Numbered from the stretch's first letter, positions 1 through 48,403 are shown. The stretch: 48,403 nt of DNA from Nemertoderma westbladi (GCA_032718475.1 JAUCBJ010001446.1:1-48403); one strand, 5' to 3'. The notes: a model not told the origin generated them from the letters alone. Translations and numbers: made by a program.

Positions 1-369
1 ACCTGTTTCACTTTGGATGTCGCCTGTTTCACTTTGAATGTCGCCTGTTTCACTTTGGATGTCGCCTGTTTCACTTTGAATGTCGCCTGTTTCACATTGG
101 ATGTCACCTGTTTCACTTCGAATGTCTCCTGCTTCACTTTGAATGTCGCCTGTTTCATTTTGAATGTCGCCTGCTTCACTTTGAATGTCGCCTGCTTCAC
201 ATTGGAAATCACCTGTTTCACTTTGGATGTCGCCTGTTTCACTTTGAATGTCACCTGTTTCAGTTTGGATGTCGCCTGGATCACTTTGAATGTCGCCTGT
301 TTCACATTGGATGTCACCTGTTTCACATTGGATGTCTCCTGCTTCACTTTGAATGTCGCCTGTTTCACT
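1..369. repeat. 21-bp coding minisatellite (TTGRATGTCGCCTGTTTCACT), ~17 copies, encoding acidic SETGDIQ-type heptads in the minus-strand ZnF gene
   Basis: Direct tandem periodicity of 21 bp, in frame with the minus-strand ORF. Confidence 0.95.
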
Positions 370-2937: not shown

Positions 2938-3427
2938 GTTACTCCATTAACCTCTGTATATGGATATTGAAGAATTTCAGATACTTCACTGCTGCATCAT
3001 CAAATTGACTTTCAGTTTGATAGTTCAATGTTTAATAGTTATCTAGCAGTATAATTTAATGAGTTTTCATCATCGGCAATATAACATACTAACTGAATGA
3101 ACTGACACGTTATATTATAATTATATACGCATTCAATAGGCCTAATAAAAAATATCAAAATAAAGCGAGTAGGCTATTTATAAATTATAAATAACTTATG
3201 CATTGCTAGCATCTAACATGTATAATTGTATAATATGAAATAATTAATTAAGTTAATAATATAAATAGCAGATAACATATTTATTTCAATACATGGGGGT
3301 GGGAGTTGTACATAGAAAACGATCATAGAAGGCTTTACCCCCTGACTTCTGAATGTATAAGTTGCAGAGCGCGCTGTTAATTATTCATCAAAGGCTGTAA
3401 GCTGGTAAGGGCTTCCTGGAAAATATA

Positions 3428-3731
3428 CACATTGGGGCCCATGTGAATAATACCAGACTTTCTGCCGTTATATTTCACTTTGCAGTTACCCCCATGTGAA
3501 GAATACCAGGTTTTCACCAAAACCACAGGTTACAGAAGGGCTGAATCTAACCAAACAGCCAAAACAATAAACGAATTAGTATATGTAAAGGTTATAAGAC
3601 AGAAATAAACGCTATAAAACACTTAATAAAGATAAATTAAAAAAAATAAAAAATCTTCATATATAAAATTCCAATAAAAAGTCGACCGAAAAGTGAAATC
3701 CCGGTATTCTTCACATGGGCGCACATTGGCG
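3428..3731. mobile_element. MITE-like element with imperfect TIRs, TA-flanked (Tc1/mariner-type)
   Basis: GCCCATGTGAATAATACC at the left end vs GGTATTCTTCACATGGGC at the right end; TA on both sides. Confidence 0.5.
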
Positions 3732-24097: not shown

Positions 24098-25017
24098 GCG
24101 TCCAAAGGTTCATAAATAGGGTGAGAAAAACTGGTACAGCGATACTTGGGAATCGGAAAGGCAGAGGTCGCAAACCATTTGTTTGTGGAGATGCATTCAA
24201 ACTAGTAGATGGCGCCATAGAAACTTCCAATTGGGAAATTACAGCTTGTGCCTTGAGGCAACTTTTGAAAGACAAGTTAGATGTCACGTATTCCCTGGCT
24301 ACCATTAAAAGAATTAGAATCAAGTTAGGATGGGTGGCAGCGAATGCCAAATACTGCCAAATGGTCAGAGACGTTAACAAAAAGAAACGGCTCATCTTCG
24401 CTCAAAACTTATTGAACAAATGGAAAATTGTAGAAAACATAGTCTTCACAGATGAGTGTTGTGTCCAACTGGACAACTGTCGAAAGAGGTTTTACGTAAA
24501 GAGGGGTGATGCCTTTATGAGGTTACGTTCAAAGGCCAAATATCCTGTAAAGGTTCATATTTATGGTGGAATAAGTTGGAGAGGAAGGACACATCTGATT
24601 ATTTTAGACGGAAAGACCCGAATTGACAGTAATATTTATTGTCAAATGCTTGACCAGGTAATTGTGCCATTCACATCGAAAATGTATTCTGATGGGTACA
24701 TATTACAAGCAGATTCCGCATCGTGTCACACCAGCCAGTTATCCACGAAGTTCATTTCTCTGAGGGGGATAAGTTACAGTTCAGACTTTTGGCCACCAGA
24801 GTCACCCGATCTAAACCCCATTGAGTCGGTTTGGCACGAGTTGAAAGAGTATCTACGAAACGTGGTACAACCTCATGGCAAGGACGAACTCAAACTAGGT
24901 ATCATTACTTTTTGGAACTCTAGGTTATCAGTCGATAAGTGTAGGAAATATATTAATCATATTCGCAAAGTTATCCCTCAGGTGTTTGAAAATAATGGAG
25001 GGCCTACTTTGTACTAA
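24098..25017 (+). pseudogene. Tc1-like DDE transposase, N-terminally truncated, DD36E triad
   Basis: VFTDE (D1), LQADSASCH (D2), WPPESPDLNPIE (E); the frame is open right up to the MITE junction and has no ATG start there. Confidence 0.88.
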
Positions 25018-26702: not shown

Positions 26703-27262
26703 TGTGACGGGATCCACGAAGGATCCCGATTTATCCGGTTTATCAAACTACGCGTCCCCGCCGTGTGTGAAAGGTGAAAAGAGTTTGAGTTGTTCGTCGT
26801 ATATAATCCTTGGGTATAATAGTATAGATGAATGATGATAATATAGAATTGGTAATATAGTAAACGGAAGGCGGGAAACGGTGATTAAAGTCCCGGTACT
26901 TCCCTAGCTAAACTAACCTAACTAACACCAAATGATACACTGACTAAATGATACACTGACTAAATGATAGCTGTACTGATAATATATTGCACGGTTGGCC
27001 AAGTTGCGCTACTCAGCCGGTGCCTTCCCCCCATTGGCTAATAACCCTGGTGTCGCCCTTTTACCTCCCCTGAAGTGTTTCCCCTTGCCCCTGCTATTCT
27101 CCCTCTTTCAGGGGTATAACCCCTAACCCCTATTGTGTGTGTTTCTCCTTCCCACTTTGTTGGGGTGACACGAGGTTGATATTGGTAATCAACCGCGTGC
27201 TCCCAATATTGCTTAACGGTTCACTCTATGGGGTTAGTGTGGCGGAATTGGATAAGCTAACA
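26703..27262 (-). repeat. 3' LTR of element A (560 bp)
   Basis: Direct repeat of 35207-35766 with 6 substitutions counted by eye. Confidence 0.95.
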
Positions 27263-27271
27263 CTCCCCCCC
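27263..27271 (-). other. Polypurine tract of element A (GGGGGGGAG)
   Basis: Purine run immediately preceding the 3' LTR on the minus strand. Confidence 0.8.
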
Positions 27272-27950
27272 ATGCTATCTTCCCGGTGAGAAGATAGCAT
27301 CCACCTCTAGTGCGCTACAATTCCGTTGGATCCCGATCTAGTATCGGGTGTGGGGTGGGATTATTTTCTCTCGGAGCCGGCTTTCCAGGCCGCTCCCTAT
27401 GGGTATGATAATGCTACCCCGTTTGTCTGGCGTCCCGTGTCGGGCCGATCGTGCGCTCCTCCCACACGACTTTTGTTTCCCCAACACCTTCGCCCTAACT
27501 CTCCTCCACTCTCACCCTAACTCTCGCATACTCCCGGACCTCCTCGTCCCACACTCCTCCTCTCACTTCTCCCCCCCCCCACACTTGAATTGCGCCCACG
27601 CTCTCTTCGCACTCCACACTATCACCCTTTTCTCGACCCCTCCTCTCACTCACTCACTCCTCCTGACGAATCTCACCCCCCTTCCTGTGCCGTCGCACTC
27701 AAGAAGTGTGAAATCGTCTATTGTCTCGTCCATAGTGCCATAGTCAGTTGGCCCCCAATCCCAGTAGCTAATTGAGAAAGGTTGTATGACTATAGTACTT
27801 ACTTCGAATATGTATATTTCATTACTAGATTACTGATTGCTACGTACGTACATACAAATTGCACTTATTTGATTATTTACATTATTTGAATTTGTATTTA
27901 AGAGTTCGCAAGTTTCGCGTGGTGCCTTCCAGGCATGTTACACCGAAGTC

Positions 27951-30453
27951 TTAGTTCGTTCCACCAGCCTTTGGGAACCACCTCAAGTCTTTCCCTTTGA
28001 CGTCCTCCTCCCTGGGTCGTTTCCTGGTCACTGCCGCTCCTCTGGGATCTGCTTTCTGTCTTCGGACTCTCGCCGCCACCTCCTTACTGATCCCGGTCGT
28101 TGACTCCTTGGGTGCCGGTGTTATCAGCTCCCAATATCGCATCGCGGGTGGCCCCTCCGAGTGGCCCTGTTGTCTCCCCCTGGTGGCGTCCCATAAGATC
28201 ATCTTCATTGCCCGCGGCACATGCTCCGCCAAGAAATCCCTAAACTCTCCTCTGGTCTGTGGCGTCCACCTATCCAAATACCTCTGCGTATTTATCACTC
28301 TGGCATATGATGCCGCCGTCGCCACTTCCTGGTAGGTAAACGGAAGTTTCCGTTTGATAATCTCCATGTGAGCCTCCTGATTGATGTTAAAGAAGCCCCA
28401 CCGGAACTCCTGGGCCTTCGTTGCCGAGTCATCGCCCCGACGTCGGCCCACTCCTCGAAGATCCAGTCGCACTGGCGTCCGTAATGTCCCCGAAAGTTAC
28501 ATTTCGAACATCGGTTATGCAACCGTGGACACGCTCCCATCCTGTGGCTCGACTAGCGGCAATAGAGACAGCTAGTCCCTTTCTGGAACCGGTACAAACA
28601 GCTCCTTTCCTGGTGGGTCTGTCTCCCACAGTAGTCGCAGCTGAGTACCAATGTCTCCCGCCCCACGTCGTCTTTCGTCCCAAGCGATCTCCGCGGTCTG
28701 TGGAGTCGCTGGTAAGCAAACTTCCGAACGTTAGTGTCCCTGTCTACGTCGATCTCCTCGCCCCTCTCGGGCATCGTCTCCCCGAATACTACCCATGGTG
28801 CCGTCCCCGGTTGCTCGCCCAACCTGATAGTGCTCCCCGCGAAATCCATCGCCGGCTCCTCGTGCACCTAGGCCCGCTTGCCGGGTCTATCCCAGAAGGC
28901 CCTCGCCCCACTGGCCGTCACCACTGGCCGGCACAGCATTCTTGAAAATGCAGCTGCAATGCAGCATGCCGATCCTAGTAGTAGGCCTATCCTCCCGATG
29001 GGCGGCATCTCTCCGAACTCGTCGTCGTCTTCGTCCTCCTCTGGCAGTGGCTCCAACCCCGGCATCCCGGTGTACCCACTATGTCCCTTCCCGCCTTGGC
29101 TCTCGCCCGTAGCTCTCCATCCCTCTAGCTCCCCTAGCTTCCTTAGCGGCTGATCGCCCTCGGCGCCCGCTGGTATGGGCATCGCTTGCAATCCCGACAT
29201 CGACTGTTTCGGTGATCCCACTGTCGACCCCAGTTCTCGCCCTAGAGACTCCCCCGAACTTCCTGACGAAGTCCAACGAAGTTCATCTAAGCCCGCCTGT
29301 TCCTCGAAGCCGTAGCTCTGCGCCCTAGCTTCCCCCTCCCTTTCCTCTCCCATCTAGCGACTTCTTCCAGTCGCTTCGCCTCTCGTCTATCCATCTCTAG
29401 CTGCTCCCATCTCTGATATGGCGTATCTATCTCCCCGTCTACTAGATGTCGGCTGTTGTAGTACACCGACTCGCCCTTCAGCCCCGGGTGGTCTACCAGA
29501 CCCGCGAAAGCCGTCTTAAAGGCTCTTCTGTAGTTTAGGGGTGATCCCGATAATAGGAATGCCGCTGGTTCCCTCACGATAACCACGGTCATGAATAGGT
29601 TAAGCAAACCTATCATTATCCAGTCCTCCTGCAGGATATATCGCTTCTGATATACCTTTATCGCTCCTCTTCAGAATTGATACACCTCTTGTTTTCCCGG
29701 CCTCGCTCCCCACTTCAGCGAGTTCGCTAATTCTACTCCGTGCTCTTCTCTGAACTTCCCCCAGTCCATTGGTTTGTGACATACGAGCCCCAATAGCTGG
29801 CCCATCGCCACCGCTCCGCAATGGCCTGTTTTCTCGACTAATCCCAACCCGCCTGGTGCTGTCATAGCCATATAGACCGTCTGCATGTCCAGGAGGTTGG
29901 GGGTGTCCGGACCGATGATTCTCTCCGTGTCATCGCGAATCGCCGATCCCACTTTCGTTGTCGACTTCTCTCTCACTAGGATTTGCACCGCCCTCGGCAG
30001 CCGGTTTAACTTCGGCCCCTCCTTCTTCCCATACGTTCCCAGGTCAAATAGGAAAATATCCCCATTTGGCGCGGCCAAATGTAGGAGTATGGTTCTGGCC
30101 GATCCCGCCGACCCTCTCCTCGAACCCTCCTCGTCTTCCACGGTCCCTTCGTCGTGTAGGATCATGTATCCTCCCCTGTTGACGGACTCTATGAACCTCT
30201 TCCAATCTTTCCTCGGCGACTCTCTCACGTACTTCGGAATCCCAAACTTTGCCTCGTCCCCTTTCACCACGTAGTGGAAATGCTGGAAGATCGCGTTGTC
30301 CAGCGACGGCGTCCCGTAGGTTCCGACCAGCCGCTGTTCGTGCACCACCCTGAAGTGGTCCTGCAGCGCTCGCGCTGCGTGACCCTTTTCCAACGTCGCG
30401 TGGCCTACACGATTTATCCAGCTGTACTCACATGCCCCCCTCTCGCTACTCAC
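27951..30453 (-). pseudogene. Accessory ORF of element A: DEDDy 3'-5' exonuclease-like domain, acidic linker and triple CCHC zinc knuckle; disrupted
   Basis: ORF fragments 29671-30453, 29287-29616 (same frame across one TGA), 28868-29353, 28553-28867, 28295-28540 and 27951-28472. Motifs ILHDEG, LLHLA..GDIFLFDL, LP..V..LV.....KVGSAI.DD, LLDMQ, QKRYILQED; knuckles CDYC..H..C, CLYC..H..CP, CSKC..GH..C. Confidence 0.65.
28927..28983 (+). mobile_element. 57-bp copy of the RTE LINE 3' end inserted in element A
   Basis: 56/57 identical to 20598-20654, including the TAGTAGTA tail. Confidence 0.9.
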
Positions 30454-30454
30454 T

Positions 30455-30827
30455 ACTGACTAATATCTATACTATATATACCCATTTACCTCTATCTCTT
30501 ACTAACTAGCACTACGTACTTTCTTACTAACTTCTAACTCTCTCTAACTAACTAACGGTACTACGTACCCTCTAACTCTTACTCTCTCTAACCAACGGTA
30601 CTACATACCCTCTTACTACTCTAACTCCACTAACTAACGGTACTGCGTACCCTCTTGCTAACCTCTAACTCTTCTAACTCCACTAACTCTCTCTACTAAC
30701 TAACGGTACTACGTACCCTCTTACTAACCTCTAACTCCACTAACTCCACTAATTCTCTCTACTAACTAACAGTACTACGTACCCTCTTACTAACCTCTAA
30801 CTCCACTAACTCCACTAACTCTCTCTA
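30455..30827. repeat. Degenerate tandem repeat (CTAACT/CTCT/GTACTACGTACCCTC units) between gag and the accessory ORF
   Basis: Recurrent ACTAACGGTACTACGTACCCTCT units about 40-70 bp apart. Confidence 0.85.
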
Positions 30828-33800
30828 CTAACAGCAGATCTCGTTTCTCGCCGCGTATTCTACCTGATCTTCCCTGGGTAGCGCTTGCCAGTACCTGCAG
30901 TTCATGGTTTGATGAAGCGCATTTGTATGTAGCTGGCATTTGCTCTTTGGGTCGTAGCCGTCCATGTACAGTGCATTGCGTATCGCAGTTGCATTTGCAC
31001 CAAAGTCCCTACTATTCTTATTGTTTGGGTTCGGCCTACTGGGCGTACTGGAGTTATATTTATTTGTGTTGTTATCTTTCCCCTGTCCGCTCCATGATGA
31101 GGTCTTACCCCCGGCTACCTGTGGACTTACAGTCCCCTGCGTCGCTGCGTATGGCAATGATTGCCTGAGCTTTGGTAATGCATTTGACGTGTTGTGTTCT
31201 GGTTTCGGCCTATGGTAATCGGTTCTTGGTCCCTTTCCCAGGCTGTCCTCACTATAGACTGGGTCGGTTATTAATTCGGTTTCGTAATTTAAGAAGCTCG
31301 ACATTTCTTCTAAACCCGGTTCCGCACCCTTCCTATCTCGAGTGGAGAAAGCGATTTTCCTCCACTTGTTACGCAGCCATATCGGTAGTGCCTGCGCTAT
31401 CGTGGTGATGTTGTTGGACGCATTGAGTTTGTATGGCGCGTCTAGCGTCTTTAGCACGATTAGCGCCTTCTCGACTTTATTAGCGAATGTCTTTATGCTA
31501 ACAGGGTTATCCTGTAGGCCACCCGATGTTATGCCCCTCAGGGTTTGCCGGATGATCTTGGCCGGGTGCCCGTATTCCCTGTCCAGTGCCCGCCATGCCG
31601 TCGTGAAGCCGCCCTCTATGCCCTGGTATTGCCTCACGATGTCGTATGCTGGGCCTCCTGTGTATACTTGCAGATATTTTAGGCACTCCGCCTGCGTCAA
31701 GTTCTTTGTTAGTATTTCGTTACTATACATGCGCCGAAACTGTAGATATTCTTCCGGCCTGCTCCCATCGAATTTGAATGGTTCCTCGGGTGGTAGCTCG
31801 ATCCTAGTTTTTAGCGCATCGATTAACGTGGCCATTCCCATCGCCTGCGCTTCCAATGGGTTCGATGGATGTTGCATAGTTTCTCCTGTTGGGTGCGGTC
31901 CGTCCGTCCTATTTTCTGCCCTCCTCTGGCTTGGGTATATCATTGGGGGTAGCGGCCCCCTCCATATTTCTGTGTCGCATGATCTATTTTTATCCAAGGG
32001 GTTCGTTGTTCTTACTCCTGTTGGGGTATATTGTTGATATTGTGATGGGGGAATGTCACCCTGCCCCCCCCCCCCCCCCCCCCACCGGTATGTTTGGTAC
32101 TGGGGTTGATGTTAATATATTGGGGCCCATGCATCTATCCGCAATAATTCCCCCCTCCCCTGGGTATATGTTATGTCCTTGCATGCTGTAGTCATACTGC
32201 TGTACTGGTACCGGTATAGGCCTATCAGCTTCTGGCCTACCTACCGGTATGTATCCGCGACCTCCGGGTTTAATCCCGTCGCCCGCGCTATCCTATCGCC
32301 TACATTATTTCTGCCAGCATGGCCTATAGTATGTGCAGTAAGGCCTACAGTATGTCCTACAGTCTGTATGTGTTGCTCGGGATCGAAGTTTATTCTTCTC
32401 GAGTAATCCTCCCCGCGGCTACCGTATTCTCGATCGGTAGGTAGATCCCGTCGGAAAGTTTCTCTTCGACCCCCTCTACTGCTCTCGTCCTCGTACCGGT
32501 ACATCGCGTACCCCTCTCTCGACGCGTAGTGCGCCTCGTCAGGTCGCGTTTCTCCGGGGTGACGGCAATCTCCCGAAGTTCGACCCCACCGACTCTCCCT
32601 TTCCATCTCGACTACCGACGGCTCGCTATCCGTCCTCGCTCTCCTATCATTCGCGGCAGTACTTCTCCCACTATCTTCTCTTCTCCTCTTTTCAGTGCAG
32701 TGTTCCCTTTCGTGAGGTCTCTCTTCGACCTCCTGGTTAAACTCCACTGTTCTTCTTCCCTCTTCTGATCGGGCTCGACGCTTCGTCCGCCCTCTCGCGA
32801 CGTCAACCTGCCCCTCTCTGCTCGATCGCATGCCGCTGGGGATACTCGCAATCCCCCTATTACTCTCCGTCGCCGGGTGTTGCGGTTTACCCAATTCGGC
32901 CCGCGCATTATCCGCCGACGCCTGTGGGACACTCTCTGCCCCCCCCCCCCCTCTCGCTGCTAACTTGTTGCTGTGGGGTTCCCGTAGTCCCCCCCCCCCA
33001 CTCGCCACTAACTTCCCGTTGTGGGGCTCCTGCAGCCCCCTCCCCCCACTCGCCACATATCACACCGCTACCTCTTACTCCACTTCTACACCGCTCTCCA
33101 GTCGACACAAAGTTTCTACTGCGGCTAGGTCTATTCACCCCCGCCTCTCTCTCTACTACTACCTGGCCTCTTTCGGGTTGGCTCAACCCCGCCACCTCCT
33201 GCCTACTAACTACGTGGCCTGCCAGGCCGCCGTCGGGTTGACTCAACCCCGCCACCTCCTGCCTACTAACTACGTGGCCTACCAGGCCGCCACCTGTCGT
33301 GTTATACACGTCCGACGCATCCACATTAATAGCACCACCGGTATTGCCATCAGTCAGATCAATTAAGTCTTCTAACTTAATTAAATTATTTTGTGCACCC
33401 AAATTAGAAATGGAATTATTTTGTTCGTTTGAAATAAGATTATTTGAATTATTTTGTAAATTCGAATTTGGGTCATTATTTAAATTATTTGGATTATTTT
33501 GCGTAACTACGTTATTTGAATTATTTCCTACATCAACATTAGAATCGTTCGGATTTAAATTTAAATTACTACCACTAGGTAAAATATTTCCTGCAATAAA
33601 AGTTTGGTTAGAATTATCCAATACGGTACTATTAATATTAACGTCGCCTACTCTAGTATTATTATTACCCCCCCCCCCCCCCTGCCCGTACGGTCACACC
33701 TGACTCGGGTTTGTCGTGCGGTCCCTGTAAGTGGGGTATTAATAAATGTTTCCACGACCCCTGGTTCCTCATAAACACTCGAGCCAGCCTCACTCTCCGA

Positions 33801-35138
33801 CAATCCCATCCGCGCCAACTCCAGTTTGCGCTTCTGTCTAGTTTGGTACTGTATAAGCCCGCTTAAACGCATATGTAAATCATCCCGCACACGCTGCCCC
33901 TGTTCCATTTTCTCCTTATTTTCCCGCGCGCTCTGCTCGGCCAGTTCCCTCTCTCTTACAACTCTCTCCATTCGTCTCGCCTCCCTCGCTACCTCATGCT
34001 CTTTACGTTCCGCCTCGCGCTCTTTACGTTCCGCCTCGCGCTCTTTACGTTCCGCCTCGCGCCTTTCACGTTCACTCTCCTCTCTCGCCTCACGCTCTTT
34101 ACGTTCACTCTCCTCTCTCGCCTCATGCTCTTTACGTTCACTCTCCTCTCTCGCCTCACGCTCTTCTTGTTCCTTCCTCCCTATTTCCTCACACTCCCTA
34201 AAGCTTCTCGCGGCCTTCTCGGCCCTCTCTCCGGTCTCTCTAACCAGTTTCATTTCCTTCTCTAATAGCGCTCTCCACTCCTCTAACTGTCTCTCTACTT
34301 CTCTCTGGCCTTGCGCTATCAGATCGAGATGGTACACCGCATTTATTTCCCTCACCCGTCTTTCTTTTGCGGAGGATGTAGCAGACTTATCGGTTGTGAC
34401 GGATTCCCTCCGCCTTCTCATTCTACTAACTTTCCCCCTCCTCCCGGAACTTCCTCCGACCGACGAGACCGAATCCTCAGGGTTAACCTCGGATTCGCCC
34501 TCCTCAGGTCTCCTCCAACCCACTAATTTTGCTCCCCGGGCATCGACTAAGTATGGCCCTATGTACACTACACTAGGCTGCATACCCCTACACTCCCATA
34601 GATCATACAGTTCGCTGGCAACCCCTCTCGCTCTGTCCTCGGCTAGTTCTCTCTGCCCAAAGCGCAGTAAATAGTTAAAGTGTTCGTTCGACTCACCTAG
34701 TCTTTTCTTTAACTTTACCTCGTCTACTTTCGCCCCTCCTTTGGCCTCTTTAAGTAGTTTCCGGGTCGCGTTGTAGGCCCGTCGAAGTCGATCGCTGACC
34801 CCGACGTCCTCGTCGCCGACCTCTCCTCCATCTCTCCGGGTCCGGCGTCGTACCGTCGGCCCCACCGTCGCCGTTCCGGTGGGCCGCCCGTCGCCCTCGG
34901 CCTGTGGCTGGCCGGCGACGTTAGTACGTCGACCCTCACTCCGTGCCGACTCGTCTTTCTCCTCTCCCGTCTCGCTTTCTCCTCATAGACGGTCCCCCAC
35001 ATCTTGGTTCGCCGGGTCGTTCGTCGTCGGTGTGGTGTTGACCGGCGTCGTGGGCCTATATCGTCTCGTCGCGGCCTCGCGGATCGTTAGGTCTCCGTCC
35101 GGGGTCCGCGGCGGTGTCGTCTCCCTCCCTTGGCTCAT
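30828..35138 (-). pseudogene. Long BEL/Pao gag (~1400 codons), disrupted and C-terminally truncated
   Basis: ATG at 35138, TGA at ~34983, frameshifts (two at poly-G runs). Contains a coiled-coil region, an Asn-rich segment and a DUF1759-like core (PFKFDGS.PEEY..F...LKYL..YTGG.A...L..EYG.P). The first knuckle is CQLH...HQTMNC; the frame stops at ICC, where the next knuckle should begin. Confidence 0.8.
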
Positions 35139-35206
35139 CTTTGTACTTTAGATTGGTGGCTGGTAGTCACTGTTTAACTAGGGGCGGCAGCTTGGGTTTT
35201 AATCAC

Positions 35207-35766
35207 TGTGACGGGATCCACGAAGGATCCCGATTTATCCGGTTTATCAAACTACGCGTCCCCGCCGTGTGTGAAAGGTGAAAAGAGTTTGTGTTGTTCG
35301 TCGTATATAATCCTTGGGTATAATAGTATAGATGAATGATGATAATATAGAATTGGTAATATAGTAAACGGAAGGCGGGAAACGGTGATTAAAGTCCCGG
35401 TACTTCCCTAGCTAAACTAACCTAACTAACATCAAATGATACACTGACTAAATGATACACTGACTAAATGATAGCTGTACTGATAATATATTGCACGGTT
35501 GGCCAAGTTACGCTACTCAGCCGGTGCCTTCCCCCCATTGGCTAATAACCCTGTTGTCGCCCTTTTACCTCCCCTGAAGTGTTTCCCCTTGCCCCTGCTA
35601 TTCTCCCTCTTTCAGGGGTATAACCCCTAACCCCTATTGTGTGTGTTTCTCCTTCCCACTTTGTTGGGGTGACACGAGGTTGATATTGGTAATCAACCTC
35701 GTACTCCCAATATTGCTTAACGGTTCACTCTATGGGGTTAGTGTGGCGGAATTGGATAAGCTAACA
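35207..35766 (-). repeat. 5' LTR of element A (560 bp)
   Basis: Direct repeat of 26703-27262. Confidence 0.95.
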
Positions 35767-37440
35767 TACGTTGCGGACAACGTAGAAATTAAAAACTCCT
35801 ACTACCAGACTACAGTAAGGCAAATACTACTGGTGATATTTTATATTGATACTACACTCAGATAAAGGTACGCATTTGATGTACCGTCACCGCCTTATAT
35901 TAGTTTTGATACAGTATTATCACTCACACTAAATGTGAAAAATGCAGGTTAATTACAAAATTGTAAATACTGTAGTATTATAAAATTTTGTCTAATTTTT
36001 TCAAAACTGTACTGTTGTACAGTACATGCTAAATGATACTGTACTGTATATACGAAATATCTAAATGCAAAATACTTTTTTGTAGGAGTTTATTGTTTAT
36101 AGTGGAAGCTGGAAGCTTATAATTTTGGGTGCTAAATATAACACTAAATTTTTTATAAATATATTAGAAAAATGTTGTTCAAAACAATACCTTTCTGATA
36201 TATGTTAACACACATATAGTACTAAAAATAATTCAAATTGGTCAATGCCTGACCTGCTATTACTATTTATTTTTAATGACGTTTTTCAAGTAGAACTACA
36301 CCACTTAACTAGAGATACACAAAAACCTTTAATTACAGTACTGTACTGTATGTGCTGAGCATATAGCGCAGTGGAATCCTTTTTAGGTCCGCGTAACGAG
36401 ACCTCTAGTATTCCCTCCGTTGTTGTTGTTAATTTCCAGTTAGGTTTTAGTTTTATAAGGCGGCTTCATATGGCGCAGTGGCGAAATTGGTAGAGCGTCT
36501 TCTAGGTACCGAGTTTAATCCCACTTTACAGTTAATTTTTTTCGGTAGTAAGGTTGCGGCAGTAATTCAATGAGACTATTCATGCGTTAGTAGACGGCGG
36601 ACCTTTGAGCGATTTCGCGCTTGTTTTCACTTACTGTTACTGCGCCTTATTTAAATTTCATATAAAGGAGTGATATACTGTAAATACACACCATGTCCTG
36701 GAATATTGTGTCGTTATTCTGGTTCATGGCCTCCCCCCTCCCAATTTTTTTTACAAATCGTAATGAGATTGCATAAAATTTGAAAGAGAGTTAGTTTCAT
36801 CTCCCTCCTCCTCCATGGGTACGAGACAGAATTGTTATTTTTTGCTTTCATTCTTTAGCTACAAGCGTTTAAAAAAAGTGTCTCCGTCGATATTGCAGCA
36901 GTTCCACCACAGTTATTCTTCAACCTACCTAATAGTGATTTGTAGATACTAGTGAAAATCTGGCCGTGCAAGGATTACAAATATGTAAAAATATTTGAAT
37001 TTGGTAGGGAAATAGCTGAGATGGGCATTCGAATGTTGCATGTATTTACTTGCAGGCCATTTTATTCTATTGAATAAATACATAACATTCTGGAACATTT
37101 TGTTTATCTCATACAGCATAAGTAGCTTGGCAACAATTCAATGCCTACATAATAATACTACTATATAGATATTCCTACATAAGCAAAATGTTCTATAATA
37201 TCAAGGTAATATAGAATCAAAAAATCCTCATTCTGGGAATTTGTTAAGGGTTTGACACCCTTTTTTGGCTAGATTGACTGGACTATAAGAACAATTTCTT
37301 TTCCAATAATTCTAATGAGGTTTGGTGTAGAAAAATTAATAAAAACTATTATTATTATTCTAGAACTTGATTGCAACCTATAAAACCAATCCGGTGCGTT
37401 GTTTACAAAAAATTTAATAAATTTTAGAACTGTCAGTGCC

Positions 37441-37448
37441 TATAAAAG
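37441..37448 (+). promoter_or_regulatory. Candidate TATA box (TATAAAAG) for the PNP-like gene
   Basis: About 50 bp upstream of the ATG at 37492; AATAAA at ~38524 downstream of the stop. Confidence 0.45.
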
Positions 37449-37491
37449 TCAATTTATTACGTCCAACCTCCTCTTCCACCCGAAGATCACG

Positions 37492-38456
37492 ATGGTTCCC
37501 GTCGAGCTCTACCTACGTCGCAACATAACCGCCGGATCACCGACCGACTTCATCAGGGTCGACGAGATTCCTGCCCTTCGCACCCGCTCGCAGAGGCAGA
37601 AGTTGACCGCGTTGAAGGAGGCCGTGGGGCAGCTGGGCATCCCCGTCACCTACAAGACCATCCCCGGCCACAAGGAGAGATCGCCGATGCTGAAGATCCA
37701 CGGCATCCGCGAGAAGACATCGGAGGAGAAGTTGAAGCAATCGGTGGTGGTCATCGTGGTCGGGATCCGGAGCGAGTTCCTCGCCATCGTCGACCATCTC
37801 CAGGATCCGAGGCACCTCGAGGTGGATCTCCCCTGGACGAAGAAGAGAGCCGTCGGATTCCTGCCAGGTTCGGACTCCGTCATCACCGTCGTCCTCCCCA
37901 AGAACATCAACGCCCCCAACGCTGCCGGAGCCATCGCCCAGGTTTTCACCGTCGCCAAAAACACCGTCGAGTATGCCCTCAAGGTAGGCACCGTCTTCGG
38001 CGGAGAGGACTCGGAGATGGGAGAGATCGGGGTCCTGAAATCGGTGGGACGGGCCAGTCCCTTGTACGATGGGTACATGCGTGAGTGGACGAAGCCGTGG
38101 GACGGATTTCCCAGTCGCCAGATATACGACATTGGTGAGGATCTGGACAGAAAGATCAAGGTGCGTGGTCGTTGGGTTCGGATCTTGGGGAGGGCAACGA
38201 CGAGCGGTCCCGCTCGTTTCCCCGGCGAGCAGCAGTTGGAGGAGAGGAGCCATGGCGAGTTCGAGATGTCCGGCGTAGTGTGGGCCGTCATAGCGACCAC
38301 GTTCGGACACCCCGTCGAAACATCCCACATCAGTGTCGTTACCGACAAGGCGACAAGGACGGCGAGGGCGCCTCCCCGACCGACAAGAAGAAATATCTAG
38401 AGAGACTTGGCATCGTCGCCTGCGAGATCCTGAGGAAATGCCTCGACGAGACCTGA
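37492..38456 (+). CDS. Nucleoside phosphorylase / MTA-SAH nucleosidase-like protein (PNP_UDP_1 fold), with one frameshift near 38350
   Basis: VVIVVGIRSEFLAI (strand1-A..E), NAAGAI, LKVGTVFGG....MGEIGV (vGiaGG..GDvvv), GEFEMSGV (EMEgag), ISVVTDKA (rgisD.A); the C-terminal helix continues in the other frame (DKKKYLERLGIVACEILRKCLDET*). Confidence 0.65.
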
Positions 38457-38877
38457 GAAGAATTCACCATCTGTCTTTATAATGTCTTGGATAAATTCAT
38501 GTGGGATCCTCTACTTTTCGGCAATAAAACATAATTATTTGCAAGATTATAAATTAAATCGACGGAAACGTTATATAAGTTATTATTTCTATTCTCATAT
38601 CTATTCTCGGATCTTTGAAGTAATAGGCCAATTTTTTGTCGGATTTCCAAATTAAAAGTGCAAATCAATTTCAACCATCACCAAACATGCGTTCAAAACT
38701 GGTAAAGTGGCAAAAAAATCAGCTAAAAGACACTGATTTGTACACAATTTTTCACCATTTTCTGCAATTTCACAAAAAAATATATGGTAGGGGGGGGGGG
38801 GGGGGGGGGGTGTGGGGTGAATTTTAGGCAAATGCGATTTTTCACCGATTTTATGCTATTTGATTTTTTTTGCATTT

Positions 38878-39605
38878 TGCCTATAATTTAGGGGCCAAAT
38901 TTTAAACATTTGTGTTTTTTCCCTGTTTTTTGCGCTATTTTTCGTCATTTTTTACGATTTGCCTAAAATTTAGGGGCCAAATTTTAGGCATTTGTGTTTT
39001 TTCCCTGTTTTTTGCGCTATTTTTCGTCATTTTTTACGATTTGCCTAAAATTTAGGGGCCAAATTTTAGGCATTTGTGTTTTTTCCCTGTTTTTTGCGCT
39101 ATTTTTCGTCATTTTTTACAATTTGCCTAAAATTTAGCGGCCAAATTTTAGGCATTTGTGTTTTTTCCCTGTTTTTTGCGCATTTTTTCGTCATTTTTTA
39201 CGATTTGCCTAAAATTTAGGGGCCAAATTTTAGGCATTTGTGTTTTTTCCCTGTTTTTTGCGCTATTTTTCGTCATTTTTTACAATTTGCCTAAAATTTA
39301 GGGGCCAAATTTTAGGCATTTGTGTTTTTTCCCTGTTTTTTGCGCATTTTTTCGTCATTTTTTACGATTTGCCTAAAATTTAGGGGCCAAATTTTAGGCA
39401 TTTGTGTTTTTTCCCTGTTTTTTGCGCTATTTTTCGTCATTTTTTACGATTTGCCTAAAATTTAGGGGCCAAATTTTAGGCATTTGTGTTTTTTCCCTGT
39501 TTTTTGCGCATTTTTTCGTCATTTTTTACGATTTGCCTAAAATTTAGGGGCCAAATTTTAGGCATTTGTGTTTTTTCCCTGTTTTTTGAGCTATTTTTCG
39601 TCATT
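38878..39605. repeat. 82-bp satellite, 9 near-identical copies, with an internal palindrome
   Basis: The GGGGCC landmark recurs every 82 bp (38891, 38973, 39055...39547); TGCCTAAAATTT..AAATTTTAGGCA hairpin in each unit. Confidence 0.95.
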
Positions 39606-39607
39606 TA

Positions 39608-39700
39608 TTTTTAGTTCATCAACACAGCCGTTTTTCGGCGGTGTACATAGATTTTAGTTCATCAACACAGCCGTTTTTCGGCGGGGTACATAGATTTTAG
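39608..39700. repeat. ~43-bp tandem duplication
   Basis: TTTTAGTTCATCAACACAGCCGTTTTTCGGCGG(T/G)GTACATAGA twice. Confidence 0.85.
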
Positions 39701-39895
39701 TAGTCTTTGCCGTTATTAGTAGTAAGGTTACTGACGCTTTTTGTGTGAAAAGTTCGTGTTGACCGGTTTTTTTTTCAAGTGAGAGTCCACGATGAAGCAG
39801 ATTTCGCTTTTTCTTTGAATGATCTCATTGGATCAATCATCAGTTTGTGGCACTTGATTGCATTTGATTGTACTAATGCATGATTGATTGATGAT

Positions 39896-41479
39896 TGTTA
39901 TGGTTTCCTAAGATTATACTATAATGAATAGAGTAGAAATCCTTGCTATCAAGCTACTCCAAGTGTTATTCTCCTTCAACTTGCTTGGCTGTTTTGCTTG
40001 ATTGTGGGCTACAGTCACAATTCTATCTTTGTTCTTTTGTGGTGTTGTCTTCGTTCTGCCTACTTTCACTAGCAATGGAGATAATACAGTGGACAATTCA
40101 CACTGCATCTGCAAAACCTCTCTCTGCAAGAAATAGCCATATACTGGTCTGGCAGATTCGCCAGCTGCATTCTGCAAATATAATATATGACGCACTTTTC
40201 CTCTATAGCTCTGGTTCCAGTATGCTATACATTGATATTCACCTTATTCCAATTCAAGCACTTTTCTCACACTGCTCTTCTCTTTTGCAGGATATTCAAC
40301 CAAACACATGGTGTTTGCGCTTTTAAGACCTTTGACAGTTTAACCTGCCAAATTAGGATGTCTTTTAGATGATATATATTCTTTAGCTTATGACGAGTAC
40401 TTGATACACTACATTAGCCGAAGCCAGTCTATGCGCAATCATTCACCCGTTGGATATACCCGGGAGACTGAGTTCGGAGCTTAATGATTGATGGTGTAAG
40501 CCTACTGTATTATTCGACTGATCGTAATATATAATCTCTGACAAATATTAGTCACTTTCGGGAAATATTAACAGTTCCTTTAGGATGTGGCGCTCTAAAT
40601 ATGTAAACAGAGTTATGACTTAAACTAGACACAACGAAAAGGCTATAGATTTACGTATATGGCGCATTCTTTAGGAGATGCTTTGTTATCAGTTACAATC
40701 ATACACAATGCCGCACAATACTGCACACTAATCTGCCGACCTTCACTAAATTTGGTCACGTATAAAGAGAGCAACAGACAATTTATGTTGGGCATATGAA
40801 ATAGCATTAGATTCACTTCAAACCACTCAACATAGGTCGCAATCGTTTATCTGTAACCGGTCTCTCTAACCTTTAGTATATCAAGAAGGTGGGGTGTCTG
40901 ACTATTGATCAGTATTCCGATATAATATTTCATCAACAAATATAATGAACAACAGACAGCAAAAGCAGTAATATTAATGTATGAATTGTTTAGTTATGGT
41001 TTGATATAGTTCGATAAGGTTTGATAACAGATATACGTTCTATAATTAAGCCTACTAATGTAAAGCTAAAGAATGCTGATATACGGAGGTGCCAAAAGCC
41101 GATGTTCTTAGGCTCTGGGCAAAAACATAACACTGAACTACTGAGTTCTGTATACACCTCCAACACAGAGACAAAAAACGCTCTGATTGGTCAACCGAAC
41201 AACGAGAGAACAAAGAAACAAAGAAATGTCGACGTGGCAATATCAGCTGTTAGCCGTCGTCATGGTAGCGACACTGTTTTCAAGAGTATCTAGCTTATCG
41301 CGTCACGAGATTGCGGATTATGTCCTCTAAAGTACAAATACAGTACAAATACAGAAGAAATGACTTTTATGTCCTCTAAAACACCAGTACAGCAAGGACA
41401 CGGCCTTTTTATGCCTGGCAAACCAACTACAGAGTACTTTAAGGGAAAATAACCGGTTAATGACGCAAAAGCTTTTACA
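39896..41479 (-). repeat. Putative 3' LTR of BEL/Pao element B (boundaries uncertain)
   Basis: Minus-strand GGGAGCGG followed by TGT at 41479, just downstream of the accessory ORF; a candidate AACA end at 39896. The partner LTR is outside the window. Confidence 0.3.
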
Positions 41480-41557
41480 CCGCTCCCAGAAAATGGGATT
41501 TAAGTCTATAAAATATAACAAATCACAGTTTCTAAAATATAAAAATACTCTAAACAG

Positions 41558-44524
41558 TTAGTCTTTCTTACGCGGACGGCGTTTACGCAGTTTTTTGAGG
41601 CTGGTAAGAGTCCTTTTCTCTTTGGGGCGAGCCACTTTACTAGGAGGGCTGTAACTCCTGGGTGAAGGGTGCAATACAATTGCATCAGAAGGTTTCGGAT
41701 TGCGATCGGTGTATCCGCCGGTCGAGGTACCTGGTTGATCGATATCAACTTCCGTGGAGCGAGGTCTAACAGCCTTTAGGGCGCGCCTCAGGACAGCAGC
41801 TCCTACGGGTCCTTGACGGGTTGTCTGGGCAATGGCGGTAGGCGGACCGTGGGTGGTAAGAAACTTCCTTGGTTTAATAGTTCTTTCCAGCTCGCGTTCT
41901 CGGGCTCGATATTCGTAGGGCCGTCGAGATACTTCCTGTAACTCAGGGTGTGAGTTGATAAATAAATCGCCATACTCAGGGTCTTGACGGATATAATTGA
42001 TCAAATGGTATGAAGTAATATCGTTAGGATTGACGTTCCTAAGGTATCTTCTAACAAATTTAGTGGAAATACACTCCCCAACACGCTTCATTAGCTCGTA
42101 ACTCGGTACGCGTGTTTTTTGTTCCACAGACGCTAATAAATAAGGATGGAACGCATAAACTCCCTCGTAAGAGCGTCCAGGGTAGTATCGATGATGGGAC
42201 TCGCAATGTAAATCCGCGTTCGCTTCCCAAGCTCGAATGTAGCGCAGGGTAATCATTTCATCTACGCTCTCTAAATCGTGATTAAAGGGGCAATTATAAC
42301 TGGCATGTCCTTTAAGTTGACAGTGGTGGCATTGAGTCATAAATTGGGGGCAGACTGCAAAAATATGAGAGTTATTAAGTCTGCAATACGCACAATATAT
42401 CTCCATCATTGGTTGTTCGTGGAAATAGGAACAGGGTACGTCTGAGTCCATAGGAGTGAAGTGGTCTCTCGATGCGCATAATCGACAACGTTTTCGAGAA
42501 ACATAGTTAGCGTGTCGATAATCGTATGCGGTGAGACATTGTGGACCTTGATACCACTCTAAGACGTAGTCGTTATCGCTGCTCCGGGGCGCTGTAGGCT
42601 GAATCGCTTCAGCTTCTAAGCATATTGGTTCGTCTTCCAATTGCATAGCTGAGGTAGGTGCGGCTGTCTCCGCAAGCGGACCCACTGTCTGAACTTCGAC
42701 GACAGAATAACCCGTGGGTATTCGGGGTCTTTGTATAACAGATGAGTGCAAGTTCTGTATACAAACGTCCTGAAAAAGGGCAAATCCCGCGCTGTTTAGC
42801 TTCTCCGCCGCTGAGTCTCTCAGGCTGAGTTTGGTCAGAGCGCGGTCCTTGAACTGACTATCAACGTTACGGAACGGAGTCAGAAAGCGCCTGAAACATT
42901 CAAAGCGGATGAATTTATTGTGTTCATCTAACTTGGCGAGTTTGGTTCCAAGTATTAAGGGATGGGCGCGTATGGTACGACTGCACACATCGGCTAGCCA
43001 ACCGGCAAGTGCTGCGTTTTCAAAGATCGTGTATATAGCTAAGGAGGGACGAAGTGGAGCACTCATAAAGCTATACACGGCGCCAGGTGCGGTCAACGGT
43101 CCATCAAAGTATAAACGAGAATAATGATCTCCGTATACTTGTTGGTAATTTATAGGATTTCCAACCTTGAAATTCCATCCGTATTCTTGAAAGGCAAGAT
43201 GTCCGATGGAGGTTCGTTGTACTTTGGTAATTCCGCTGGGTGTATTGGCATACATAGTGCGGAAGAAACCTCGGCCTTCTGCCCAAGGAGCAATCAGCTG
43301 AGTATCAACGAAGGGGTATGGAATGTTCTCCATATTCCGAAAGTCGTATGCCTAATATGTCTTCCATTGATGGTAGTGGTAGAGAGCAGGGGAAGACCTA
43401 TGTCGTATTCAGAAATATTCCGAAATACGATCTCAGTAGGAGGATTGCATCATTCGATGACTATCTCCAAATGAATTTATCCCCAGTGATTAGGGGGTGA
43501 ACAACCAGATTTATGACACATAATGGTACCAGTTGTTCACAAACTATCCGCGTGTCCTTTCAGTCCTTGTATCACGGTTGTGGACTTAAGGAAATCATTG
43601 GTGGTTGATTTTCTAATCAACAACGAGAGGGTGGAAGTTGATATCATAAATATCAACAGGGTGTGACATGAATAGGAGATGCGGACACCAATATGAGCAT
43701 CCAGATTAACAGTAAGGGATGGGAGGTTTATTAAGAGGTGGTATGATCCATACCACGATACAACTAGGATTGGTCGATCGTCTCCCAAAGTTCCGAGCGC
43801 ATTGGGAAGAGAAGGTGTGACGAAGTGGGTTGTATTTTCAATAGCGATGTATAGAGGGATAAAGGGAGTAAAGAGGAGGGAGGATATAGGGTAGTATCCA
43901 TAAGATACCACAATGGACCAGTTTTCCGTCACGTCATCATTCATTCCTGTCTTTTAATTGTGACACTGATCACAAGAATTACAAGAAAACGATGAGGGAA
44001 GAGAAATTTACAGCCTCCCGAAGGAGACCGCCCGCGAGCACCCGTGCCCCGGGGAAAACTATTCACATTATGGACCCAGGACATTAACACACGTCTCTTC
44101 TCCAGTGGTTCTCCTATATTTGTCTTTACAAGCCTTCATCCACGTTCTTTCTTTCGAGCTGATTTCGAATAGAGTTCTCATGTTCTATTCTCGGTTTATC
44201 GTTCCGACTCCGCTGGGTATGATATTTAAATAAAACCATTTCCCTTTCGGTATCCACATCGTCCGTGTCGTGTAAATCGATAGGATGGCCGGTAGTTAAG
44301 AAGTCCATATACGTACCATTACGATGCGTATAGCGAGCGGTGAACTTTCTATAGTCCAATTCACGCGTAAGTTGCTCCGGGGACATTGGCGGTTCGATAT
44401 AACGACCATCATCCTCCGTAGTAGTTGGACCAGCGTCGCAGCGTATCAAGCTATCGACAAACGCTTGTAAAGGTAGAGTATATAGCTCCCTGATGCCAAG
44501 ATCATCTTCTATCAACTCAGTCAT
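41558..44524 (-). CDS. Accessory ORF of element B, homologous to that of element A (exonuclease-like + triple CCHC); the 3' 591 codons are open, the 5' part is broken
   Basis: ORF 41558-43333 has CRLC..H..C, CAYC..H..CP and CHHC..GH..C. Upstream fragments (43537-43944, 44126-44524 and adjacent frames) give YIAIEN, LLINL, VP..V..LV.HP.I, GINSFGD. Confidence 0.65.
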
Positions 44525-45343
44525 ATCTGCTATGAGTTTATCAATATTATAATGAGTTTATATATATTAGGCTAGCGGGCGTCGCTGCCTACCCCTCTTT
44601 TGCCCCCGGACAGTGTAAGATCCTCAGCGCCGATGTACCGTCGTCGCTGTGCTTTCGCCAACGATGTAGCTACACAACGACAACGATAACCGGCACAAGT
44701 CACTTAACTGTCCGTCCCAAAGGCTTAGATGTACTGCAGGTTCTTCTTGGAGAGTTAGGGTTACTTTCACAATTGCGACTCGCTACTGTAAACACACCTT
44801 AGTAGTAACATTCACCTACAAACGCACAAATTCAACACAACTGCAACAAACTGCACACATTCGGGCCATTTGTCCATTAGTCAGTACCTTCCAGAATGTC
44901 ACTGTATTTATTATGTATCCTTGGATACTAGCAGTGCGCTATTTATTCCCTATGCTATTCAATGGGGCATGCTTTCTATTGTTCTTTTAACTCACTTCTA
45001 ATTCTAGCGTGGTTGTTGCCATGGTGACATTATGGAAAGCTAGCGGTAGAATTAGGGTAATTCTCATGCATACAGATCTGGGATGCTATTTAATAGTAAT
45101 TCTTTAATGGTCAATATCCCCTTTATACATGATTTTATGAATTTTATCGGCTATTGACTATACATTGGAGATTCTCGCACACAAATACACTTAATAGAGT
45201 GAATCTCCGCTCCCATGATCTATTACTTAATGGAAATTTGGGAATGTTATAAATTGTATAAAATGACAATTTATTAAATTCATTGAAATATATGAATTTA
45301 AATTTATTCCCGTAAATTTTATTATTTAATATTAAAATGGACA

Positions 45344-45613
45344 CAATTTTATTCCAGAACGTGTCTGGGGACTGGGATCCTTGATTCTAGGAATTTTGAC
45401 CTTTTAAGAGTATCGGTAAGTGCTACGATATCTTAATCGACTAGAATTTTAAAGGATCTGATATTTGACAGATTTTTGTAAATATTAATACTTAATATTT
45501 AGGATGGGCACCAGTTTATTCCAGAACTTGTCTGGGGACGTTAACCATTGATTCTAGAAATTTGTCTTTCAAGTATATCGGTGGGTGCCGCGATATCTTA
45601 ATCGACTAGAATT
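45344..45613. repeat. Diverged ~105-bp direct repeat pair in the spacer between pol and the accessory ORF
   Basis: TTTATTCCAGAAC.TGTCTGGGGAC...TTGATTCTAG...CGATATCTTAATCGACTAGAATT at ~45344-45448 and ~45512-45613. Confidence 0.85.
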
Positions 45614-46164
45614 ACATATGGTCAAAGGGTTTAACAGATTTATTTCGCGTTATACGCTACTGTTAAAGGGACATCACGCTACTATATGTATTATTTAATA
45701 TACGGTATGAGAGCAATATCGCACGAAGCAATGTCAGTGTGAAGAGGCAAGTCGTTTCCAAGGTCTACCCAGAGCTTGGTTTAGCCGAGACACGAGGATC
45801 TGAACTTTGCATTCCTAATACTCTGCCTACCAATAATACTTGAATATAGTAGTGGCTTTATTGTACTTTAATAAGTACGGATATTTCATCTTACTGTAGT
45901 CACGTATTGATAATGTAATACGGGCAGTAAGGAAAGAGAAAAAGAATTATTTCTCGCCGTCGCACTAAATATATAATATACGTAATTAAATAATAAACGC
46001 GAATATATTGCACTAATCTACTAAATAATCTCTAAAATACATACTACTAAATAAAATTAAATAAAACGATTAAAATAAAATTACATAATAATACATACAT
46101 AATTATAAAAATAAAACAAATACAAATATAAAATAATATGGTCACACACCCACTCCAGCCGTTG

Positions 46165-48402: not shown

Positions 48403-48403
48403 C

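What the first reader, a model, noticed from the sequence alone, without database searches (positions are those of the whole stretch)
27951..44524. Two divergent BEL/Pao retrotransposons carry the same non-env cargo gene: exonuclease-like domain plus triple CCHC knuckle
Seen: both elements have an extra sense-strand ORF just before the 3' end (A 27951-30453; B 41558-44524). Colinear blocks align by eye (A vs B): SWINRV/SWVHNV, IFQHFHYVV/LFPHRFLVI, YMILHDEG/LYIAIEN, IFLFDL/HLLINL, LPRAVQILV/VPLCVINLV, GSAIRDDTERI/GINSFGDSHRM, LLDMQ/FVDTQ, LLGLVCHK/EYGWNFK, VYQFxRGAIKVYQKRYILQE/VYSFMSAPLRPSLAIYTIFE. Each then has three CCHC knuckles with a C.YC..H....CP....C..C...GH....C core. Established: this motif order matches DnaQ/DEDDy exonucleases of the WRN-exo/Mut-7-Nibbler/EXD1/Egalitarian type, several of which act in small-RNA or RNA-transport pathways. 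Tandem CCHC knuckles bind RNA (Air1/2-like). DEDDy cargo ORFs have been reported in bdelloid rotifer retroelements. Inference: this is an old, conserved accessory gene of a BEL/Pao lineage. It may be an RNA-binding pseudo-nuclease that protects or traffics element RNA or antagonises piRNA/siRNA silencing. I do not recall this domain combination being described for BEL/Pao.
Basis: partly seen in the sequence, partly recalled or inferred. Interest (0 to 1): 0.88.

Follow-up and report, generated by a model that had tools for sequence, protein, structure and literature searches.

The report
Retrotransposon extra gene: nuclease-like RNA binder
Two retrovirus-like jumping elements in this genome each carry a broken extra gene with zinc knuckles where an envelope gene usually sits; in one it also has a likely exonuclease-shaped domain, and the protein probably once bound the element's own RNA rather than cutting it.

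Summary
Partly confirmed. B is the pol end of a very high-copy BEL/Pao family followed by an extra ORF. Both ORFs have three CCHC-type knuckles. A's N-half resembles WRN/EXD-type DEDDy exonucleases by language-model features (0.94) and by my own profile tests (0-7 of 300 shuffles), without a full catalytic set. B's exonuclease assignment and A-B homology outside the knuckles failed almost every statistical test (best p 0.02); they rest on motif order. Variants among B copies show past purifying selection on the N-terminal and knuckle-bearing parts (19 of 30 synonymous; pol 19 of 19) but not on the broken core (1 of 15), so the gene was probably functional and is decaying. No homologue among 1.84 billion proteins. 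DEDDy third ORFs are known from rotifer Gypsy-like elements, and exonuclease plus CCHC array from trypanosome RNase D; I found neither reported for BEL/Pao. Likely an RNA-binding accessory factor; silencing antagonism is untested. The scan had not noted this gene elsewhere.

The parts
26703..35766 (-). Element A: young, internally deleted (pol-less) BEL/Pao-type LTR element, 9064 nt
   Evidence: LTR pair, TG..CA ends, TACGT on both flanks; no protease or RT motif or Pfam hit inside
35207..35766 (-). A 5' LTR, 560 nt
   Evidence: 6 differences from the 3' LTR
30828..34982 (-). A gag, broken into several frames, cut off in its zinc-knuckle region
   Evidence: DUF1759 E 8.8e-11 in 30828-32111; six-frame reading
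30492..30832 (.). Tandem repeat standing where pol and the start of the extra ORF would be
27951..30459 (-). A extra ORF, broken (stops near 29671, 28868, 28553, frame changes, LINE piece)
29600..30170 (-). A likely DEDDy (WRN/EXD-like) exonuclease-fold domain, catalytic set incomplete
   Evidence: ESM features 0.94 to PF01612 clusters; profile tests; alignment
28927..28986 (+). 60-nt piece 97% identical to the 3' end of the LINE at 18780-20657, likely a truncated insertion
28469..28639 (-). A triple CCHC knuckle
27263..27271 (-). A polypurine tract
   Evidence: GGGGGGGAG directly before the 3' LTR
26703..27262 (-). A 3' LTR
46165..48403 (-). B pol 3' part (Pao RNase H tail, integrase, DUF5641), open to the window edge
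   Evidence: 19 of 19 listed variants synonymous
44525..46164 (-). B AT-rich spacer between pol and the extra ORF
   Evidence: GC 0.35; high-copy like its neighbours
44126..44524 (-). B extra ORF, N-terminal piece from the first ATG
   Evidence: 5 of 8 variants synonymous
43352..44125 (-). B extra ORF, broken core in several frames; holds the by-eye ExoI/ExoII-like blocks
   Evidence: 1 of 15 variants synonymous, about 12-fold lower contig depth than the knuckle half
41558..43351 (-). B extra ORF, open 597-codon C-terminal part: ExoIII-like block, knuckles, basic tail
   Evidence: 14 of 22 variants synonymous
42290..42487 (-). B knuckle cluster (one canonical, two variant)
   Evidence: zf-CCHC_3 E 8.6e-4
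40312..41479 (-). B inferred 3' LTR, about 1170 nt
   Evidence: purine-rich tract then TGT at 41479, ACA at 40312; high-copy depth ends within 40140-40553; the 5' LTR is outside the window, so not shown
3309..3434 (-). Short relic resembling B's ExoIII-like block, a likely third, older relative
   Evidence: score 64 vs 47+-4.5, 0 of 100 shuffles over 40 kb; tblastx E 0.009

Best explanation
Two BEL/Pao LTR retrotransposons here carry, just before their 3' end, a broken extra gene with tandem CCHC knuckles that likely encoded an accessory RNA-binding protein, built in A (and probably in B) on a catalytically impaired WRN/EXD-type exonuclease fold. Inferred mechanism: the protein, made from a subgenomic or spliced message, holds the element's RNA with the exonuclease-like pocket and the knuckles (as the knuckle array of trypanosome RNase D does) and helps to protect, export or localise it; basic C-terminal tails suggest a nuclear step. 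Acting in trans, it can be lost by single lineages, which fits its decay beside a constrained pol in B. Shown: anatomy, knuckles, breaks, variant pattern. Statistically supported: A's fold. Inferred: B's fold, common origin, impaired catalysis, function.
For: A between twin LTRs with gag. A fold: ESM features 0.94, 177 of 256 shared, 10 of 10 best family hits in the PF01612 family or clan; hhalign to 120 bacterial WRN-like exonucleases over 128 columns, E 0.011, 3 of 168 shuffles; frameshift-aware profile 0-7 of 300 shuffles across 6 settings and 2 nulls; above all 79 other window tiles in 2 of 3 settings, 78 of 79 in the third; block chain 0 of 300. ExoII Asp, ExoIII Tyr and the following Trp fall in invariant columns; the last Asp is Glu; no GFDxE. 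B: 19 of 30 listed variants synonymous in the open parts (p 0.002 against 0.36), 15 of 19 among those still polymorphic (p 2e-4). Near-fixed differences: pol 7 of 7 synonymous, extra ORF 4 of 18 (p 7e-4). Precedents: TbRND knuckles raise RNA binding (PMC7797062); Egalitarian's exonuclease-like domain helps bind RNA stem-loops (PMC6056234); CERV, an env-position ORF, exports Cer1 RNA (PMC10309623).
Against: B is not significant against the WRN-like profile in any test (75-290 of 300 shuffles reach its score) and A-B similarity outside the knuckles is weak. Pfam, PHROGs, NCBIfam and PDB sequence searches give A no exonuclease hit; plain hmmsearch ranks A first of 486 tiles but at E 2.3. The only model with a DnaQ fold was steered by a WRN-like alignment, so it is circular. 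Missing catalytic residues are read from decayed copies and may post-date decay; the ExoI register is ambiguous. The variant lists are the 40 best-supported rows of 559 and of 1555. No function was tested.
Confidence: 0.45

Rival explanations
1. The gene encoded an active 3'-5' exonuclease with RNA-gripping knuckles, like TbRND, trimming element RNA or cDNA ends; the odd catalytic motifs reflect divergence or decay.
For: A keeps acidic residues near ExoI, the ExoII Asp and ExoIII YxxxE; rotifer DEDDy ORF3s keep their invariant residues, as DEED (PMC5408684); TbRND has this architecture and is active.
Against: Neither copy shows D-x-E at the predicted first strand, and both show Glu at the last Asp position, which a random decay would be unlikely to produce twice (if the by-eye alignment holds).
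Confidence: 0.15
2. The protein is a counter-silencing factor: a decoy mimic of host EXD1/Mut-7/Nibbler that binds or mis-trims piRNA/siRNA.
For: Closest fold class includes small-RNA pathway proteins (circular model); B's family reached very high copy number.
Against: No direct evidence; high-depth variants lack part of the gene (join 42638-44166 in DNA runs) and the core is the least represented part, so copy success does not track the intact gene; in trans action could hide this.
Confidence: 0.15
3. A and B carry unrelated or independently captured knuckle genes; only A's has an exonuclease-like domain, and the block matches are by-eye coincidences.
For: All tests of B's fold and of A-B homology in that half are non-significant; CCHC arrays are common in retroelements.
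Against: Same position, strand, domain order and basic tail; equal 45-residue spacing from a Lys to the ExoIII-like Tyr and shared VYxF and YxxxE (read); tail similarity p 0.02-0.06. B's five or so breaks and long insertions lower the power of the tests.
Confidence: 0.2
4. B's extra ORF is not part of the BEL element but a separate high-copy element lying after it, or its breaks are introns or assembly errors.
For: B's 5' LTR is outside the window; a purine run plus TGT also follows the pol stop; no single listed contig spans pol to ORF.
Against: The spacer has no match to the downstream LTR-like region; high copy depth is continuous from pol to about 40300; a contig joins the ORF start to the spacer (44390-44801); A shows the arrangement inside one LTR pair. 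The core has coding-like GC and one weak acceptor-like site, and most breaks have no common indel variant in four runs.
Confidence: 0.07

Closest known systems
DEDDy ORF3 of bdelloid Vesta and Juno LTR retrotransposons and Athena/Terminon elements (Rodriguez, Kenefick, Arkhipova 2017, PMC5408684; main text read)
   Same: DEDDy-type exonuclease-like ORF in the env position of an LTR element; no env features; role unknown; the authors already raise 3'-end processing, silencing and the EXD1/Maelstrom pseudo-nuclease analogy.
   Different: Those lineages are Juno/Vesta (Gypsy-like by my recall), not BEL/Pao; their catalytic residues are intact (DEED); no CCHC knuckle array is described (0 occurrences of CCHC in the listing). 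No sequence link to them could be tested.
Trypanosoma brucei RNase D, TbRND (PMC7797062; passages read; PDB 7c42)
   Same: DEDDy exonuclease domain followed by tandem CCHC fingers that increase RNA binding.
   Different: Cellular mitochondrial enzyme, active, four fingers; no sign of direct relationship.
WRN exonuclease / EXD2 / Nibbler (Mut-7) / EXD1 / Egalitarian
   Same: Fold class that A's domain resembles; EXD1 and Maelstrom are inactive RNA-binding derivatives (PMC5408684).
   Different: Host genes, about 15-22% identity to the bacterial WRN-like set, long insertions, no knuckle array.
CERV of Cer1 (C. elegans Ty3/gypsy; PMC10309623; passages read)
   Same: [quoted passage not shown]
   Different: Different domains, no exonuclease fold or CCHC array reported; spliced to gag.
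BEL/Pao (Belpaoviridae) elements with an env-like third ORF (PMC8742986, whole text; PMC3118150, passages)
   Same: gag/pol domains, LTR size, polypurine tract, third-ORF position.
   Different: Third ORF here is not env-like; neither paper mentions an exonuclease.
Dada DNA transposons (PMC3706591; passages read)
   Same: Transposon-borne DEDDy domain and a CCHC finger.
   Different: Inside a DDE transposase of a DNA transposon, all four catalytic residues kept.

Membership tests
BEL/Pao LTR retrotransposon (element A) | Paired LTRs with TG..CA ends, target duplication, polypurine tract | tested here: met
   560-nt LTRs, 6 differences, TACGT, GGGGGGGAG
BEL/Pao LTR retrotransposon (element A) | BEL/Pao-type gag (DUF1759) | tested here: met
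   E 8.8e-11; that DUF1759 marks BEL/Pao is recalled
BEL/Pao LTR retrotransposon (element A) | pol with PR-RT-RH-IN | tested here: not met
   No Pfam hit or motif between gag and the extra ORF: a non-autonomous derivative, not a complete member
BEL/Pao LTR retrotransposon (element A) | tRNA-Arg/Gly primer binding site | tested here: inconclusive
   No TGG start right after the 5' LTR; no tRNA set to compare
BEL/Pao LTR retrotransposon (element B) | Pao RNase H tail, integrase and DUF5641 at the end of pol | tested here: met
   DUF5641 E 9e-20, Integrase_H2C2 E 1.5e-7, Peptidase_A17 tail E 0.066
BEL/Pao LTR retrotransposon (element B) | LTR pair and RT phylogeny | not testable with these tools
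   5' part lies outside the window; no genome held
DEDDy / DnaQ exonuclease, WRN-EXD type (A) | Sequence or fold similarity to PF01612 | tested here: met
   Moderate; below Pfam's threshold; model evidence circular
DEDDy / DnaQ exonuclease, WRN-EXD type (A) | Four catalytic acids D-x-E, D, Y-x3-D | tested here: not met
   ExoII D and ExoIII Y present, last D is E, no D-x-E on the first strand; read from a decayed copy
DEDDy / DnaQ exonuclease, WRN-EXD type (B) | Sequence or fold similarity to PF01612 | tested here: inconclusive
   Not significant; domain is split over frames; no language-model or fold result obtained for B
Bdelloid-type DEDDy ORF3 | Descent from the Vesta/Juno/Athena DEDDy pool | not testable with these tools
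   Those sequences were not retrievable; phmmer of A found no true relative
Env-like ORF | Signal or transmembrane segment, fusion-protein homology | tested here: inconclusive
   No env Pfam hit; no transmembrane predictor run; A's one hydrophobic stretch is the LINE piece read backwards
CCHC zinc knuckle array | Tandem CX2CX4HX4C | tested here: met
   A three (one interrupted by a stop); B one canonical and two variant

The most novel reading that the evidence does not exclude
A deep-rooted BEL/Pao lineage carries its own RNA-pathway protein, a pseudo-exonuclease fused to a knuckle array, shared by at least three highly diverged families in this genome (A, B, the relic at 3309-3434), which mimics host EXD1/Nibbler/Egalitarian to shield or route element RNA: a transposon-encoded RNA chaperone or silencing antagonist of a type not described for Belpaoviridae.
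Probability: 0.3. Interest if true: 0.8.

Novelty: new variant of a known kind. Interest (0 to 1): 0.52.

Why it matters
Third ORFs of BEL/Pao elements are described only as env-like. An exonuclease-fold, knuckle-bearing ORF would extend the unexplained DEDDy cargo of rotifer retroelements to a second LTR superfamily and another host, add an RNA-binding module, and come with the first hint of past purifying selection (the rotifer study found no clear departure from neutrality for the env and GDSL ORF3s it resequenced). A family with very many copies makes the role testable by comparative genomics. The value is capped because both window copies are broken, the shared origin is not proven and no function is shown.

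Tried and rejected
No whole genome held. Homologue searches gave nothing: word search of B's 597-aa part (0 of 5994 candidates) and of A residues 90-300 (0 of 923); phmmer of A over 1.84 billion representatives gave 2 repeat-driven, unrelated hits; metagenome scans with B's ORF and integrase (0 of 54 and 0 of 61 stretches); IMG/VR with pol; plasmids by tblastn (6 weak unrelated records); PDB by sequence; NCBIfam and PHROGs. Single-sequence AlphaFold of A failed (pLDDT 35) and its fold searches were uninformative. The alignment-steered model (pLDDT 61) matches EXD2, RNase D and WRN but is circular and was not counted as independent. The Atlas gave no result for B. No RNA holder listed; the one run guessed to be RNA shows only a join that DNA runs also have, so expression is untested. 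Introns as the cause of B's breaks: no convincing splice signals. Third-position excess in B's core: none in any fixed frame (4, 5, 6 of 15). Literature: searches used the phrase 'BEL Pao', which does not match 'BEL/Pao' and so tested little; searches used separate words (3 unrelated papers; 0 papers); searches found no BEL/Pao exonuclease ORF. Repbase reports and subscription journals are not searched, and supplements (element sequences of PMC3118150, alignments of PMC5408684) were not examined; they may bear on novelty.
Full report
Anatomy of A. Two 560-nt repeats at 26703-27262 and 35207-35766 differ at 6 places, end in TG..CA and are flanked by TACGT on both sides: one young LTR element on the minus strand. 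It holds a broken gag with a DUF1759 match (E 8.8e-11), a tandem repeat (30492-30832), the extra ORF (30459-27951), a polypurine tract and the 3' LTR. There is no pol: no Pfam hit and no protease or RT motif. Its extra ORF has stops, frame changes and a 60-nt LINE piece.

Anatomy of B. The window ends inside an open pol frame with integrase and DUF5641 matches. After a 1.6-kb AT-rich spacer comes the extra ORF: an N-terminal piece, a core broken over several frames, and 597 open codons. Contigs of four public runs cover pol, spacer, ORF and the downstream 1.2 kb without a gap; summed depth in the two deepest runs is about 1e4-1e6, against tens for single contigs in the flank (not a copy number, but the contrast is large). 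I infer a 3' LTR at 41479-40312; its partner is outside the window and no genome is held.

Knuckles. A has three CX2CX4HX4C motifs, B one canonical and two variant ones; the clusters align above 3000 of 3000 shuffles, as any CCHC arrays might.

Is A exonuclease-like? Standard libraries miss it. The ESM Atlas put WRN-like PF01612 clusters first (0.94, 177 shared features; PF01612 on 38% of the first cluster's members). I then gathered 120 bacterial WRN-like exonucleases (a profile of 60 of them plus A hits WRN at E 6e-27). Plain hmmsearch ranked A first of 486 tiles but at E 2.3; hhalign aligned 128 columns at E 0.011, 3 of 168 shuffles; a frameshift-aware profile was reached by 0-7 of 300 shuffles over six settings and two nulls and by 0, 0 and 1 of 79 other window tiles; an ordered-block test gave 0 of 300, though only narrowly above the next real tile (101.5 vs 97.2). 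Together this is moderate support. ExoII Asp and ExoIII Tyr are kept, the last Asp is Glu and the first strand reads ILHDE, not GFDxE. The alignment-steered model matches EXD2, RNase D and WRN but is circular; the unsteered one failed.

Is B the same gene? Not shown. B scored at chance level against the same profile in every test, and A against B outside the knuckles gave 101 of 300, 553 of 2000 and at best 11 and 43 of 300, and 60 or 186 of 3000 for the tail. By eye the case is fair: same order of blocks, equal spacing to the ExoIII-like YxxxE, same position and a basic tail; many breaks and long insertions weaken the tests. I give common origin about 0.6. A relic at 3309-3434 resembles B's block (0 of 100 shuffles) but did not link B to A (751-955 of 1000).

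Selection. From the listed variants (40 best-supported rows of 559, two dropped as absent in X1 and beside an indel; 7 further ORF rows and 19 pol rows from the 40 of 1555): pol 19 of 19 synonymous, N-terminal piece 5 of 8, 597-codon part 14 of 22, core 1 of 15. The open parts exceed a neutral 0.36 (p 0.002; 15 of 19 for variants still polymorphic, p 2e-4); differences nearly fixed against this copy are synonymous in pol (7 of 7) but mostly not in the extra ORF (4 of 18). The core's frames are uncertain, but no fixed frame shows a third-position excess. The core is also about 12-fold less covered than the knuckle half, and deleted variants exist; divergence beyond the 80% cut-off could explain part of that. 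Reading: the gene was constrained in the family's past and is decaying in this lineage while pol stays constrained. This is a rough tally, not a dN/dS.

Mechanism. Most likely (0.45) an accessory RNA-binding protein, pseudo-nuclease plus knuckles, acting in trans on element RNA. This rests on precedent: TbRND's knuckles raise RNA binding (PMC7797062, passages), Egalitarian's exonuclease-like domain helps bind localisation stem-loops and Egalitarian carries I-factor RNA (PMC6056234, passages), and CERV exports Cer1 RNA (PMC10309623, passages; this paper and the intron idea came from scan note e1-9841748). Rivals: unrelated genes (0.2), active nuclease (0.15), silencing decoy (0.15), separate element or introns (0.07).

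Novelty. DEDDy third ORFs are published for rotifer Vesta/Juno elements, with the same functional guesses (PMC5408684, parts 1-3 of 5 read; also PMC6431247, passages), and Dada transposases carry DEDDy and CCHC (PMC3706591, passages). The ICTV profile of Belpaoviridae (whole text) and the BEL/Pao survey (PMC3118150, passages, 0 occurrences of 'exonuclease') mention only env-like third genes; PMC7998251 (passages) had nothing relevant. Searches found no BEL/Pao case, within the limits stated under Tried and rejected. The scan's own notes hold no match. Verdict: a real feature, a new variant of a known kind, interest 0.52.

Noticed in passing
window 28927-28986 and 20598-20657: A 60-nt piece inside A's extra ORF is 97% identical to the 3' end of the LINE at 18780-20657 (RVT_1 E 6e-28; RTE type by my recall), likely a truncated antisense insertion.
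   Followed up: partly
window 3309-3434 (-), possibly also 3647-3709: Relic resembling B's extra ORF lies about 350 nt upstream of the C2H2 ORF 1-2946; a second short match to B's N-terminal piece (score 41) was not tested against shuffles.
   Followed up: partly
window 1-2946 (-) and 11116-14100 (+): Two long uninterrupted multi-C2H2 zinc-finger ORFs in divergent orientation; the first ends in a 7-residue repeat.
   Followed up: no
window 22951-25017: DDE_3 transposase ORF 24094-25017 (E 6e-17) lies beside, not between, inverted GGACACTTCCCCCC arrays at 22951-23082 and 23961-24105.
   Followed up: no
window 42638-44166 and 46294-48011: Contigs of DNA runs join across these stretches at high depth: internally deleted B variants lacking the core of the extra ORF or most of the integrase region.
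   Followed up: partly
window 37384-38400 (+) and 38784-39739: A 338-codon ORF without a family hit, and an 82-nt tandem array next to it.
   Followed up: no
window 30492-30832: A tandem repeat sits exactly at the junction where A lost pol.
   Followed up: no
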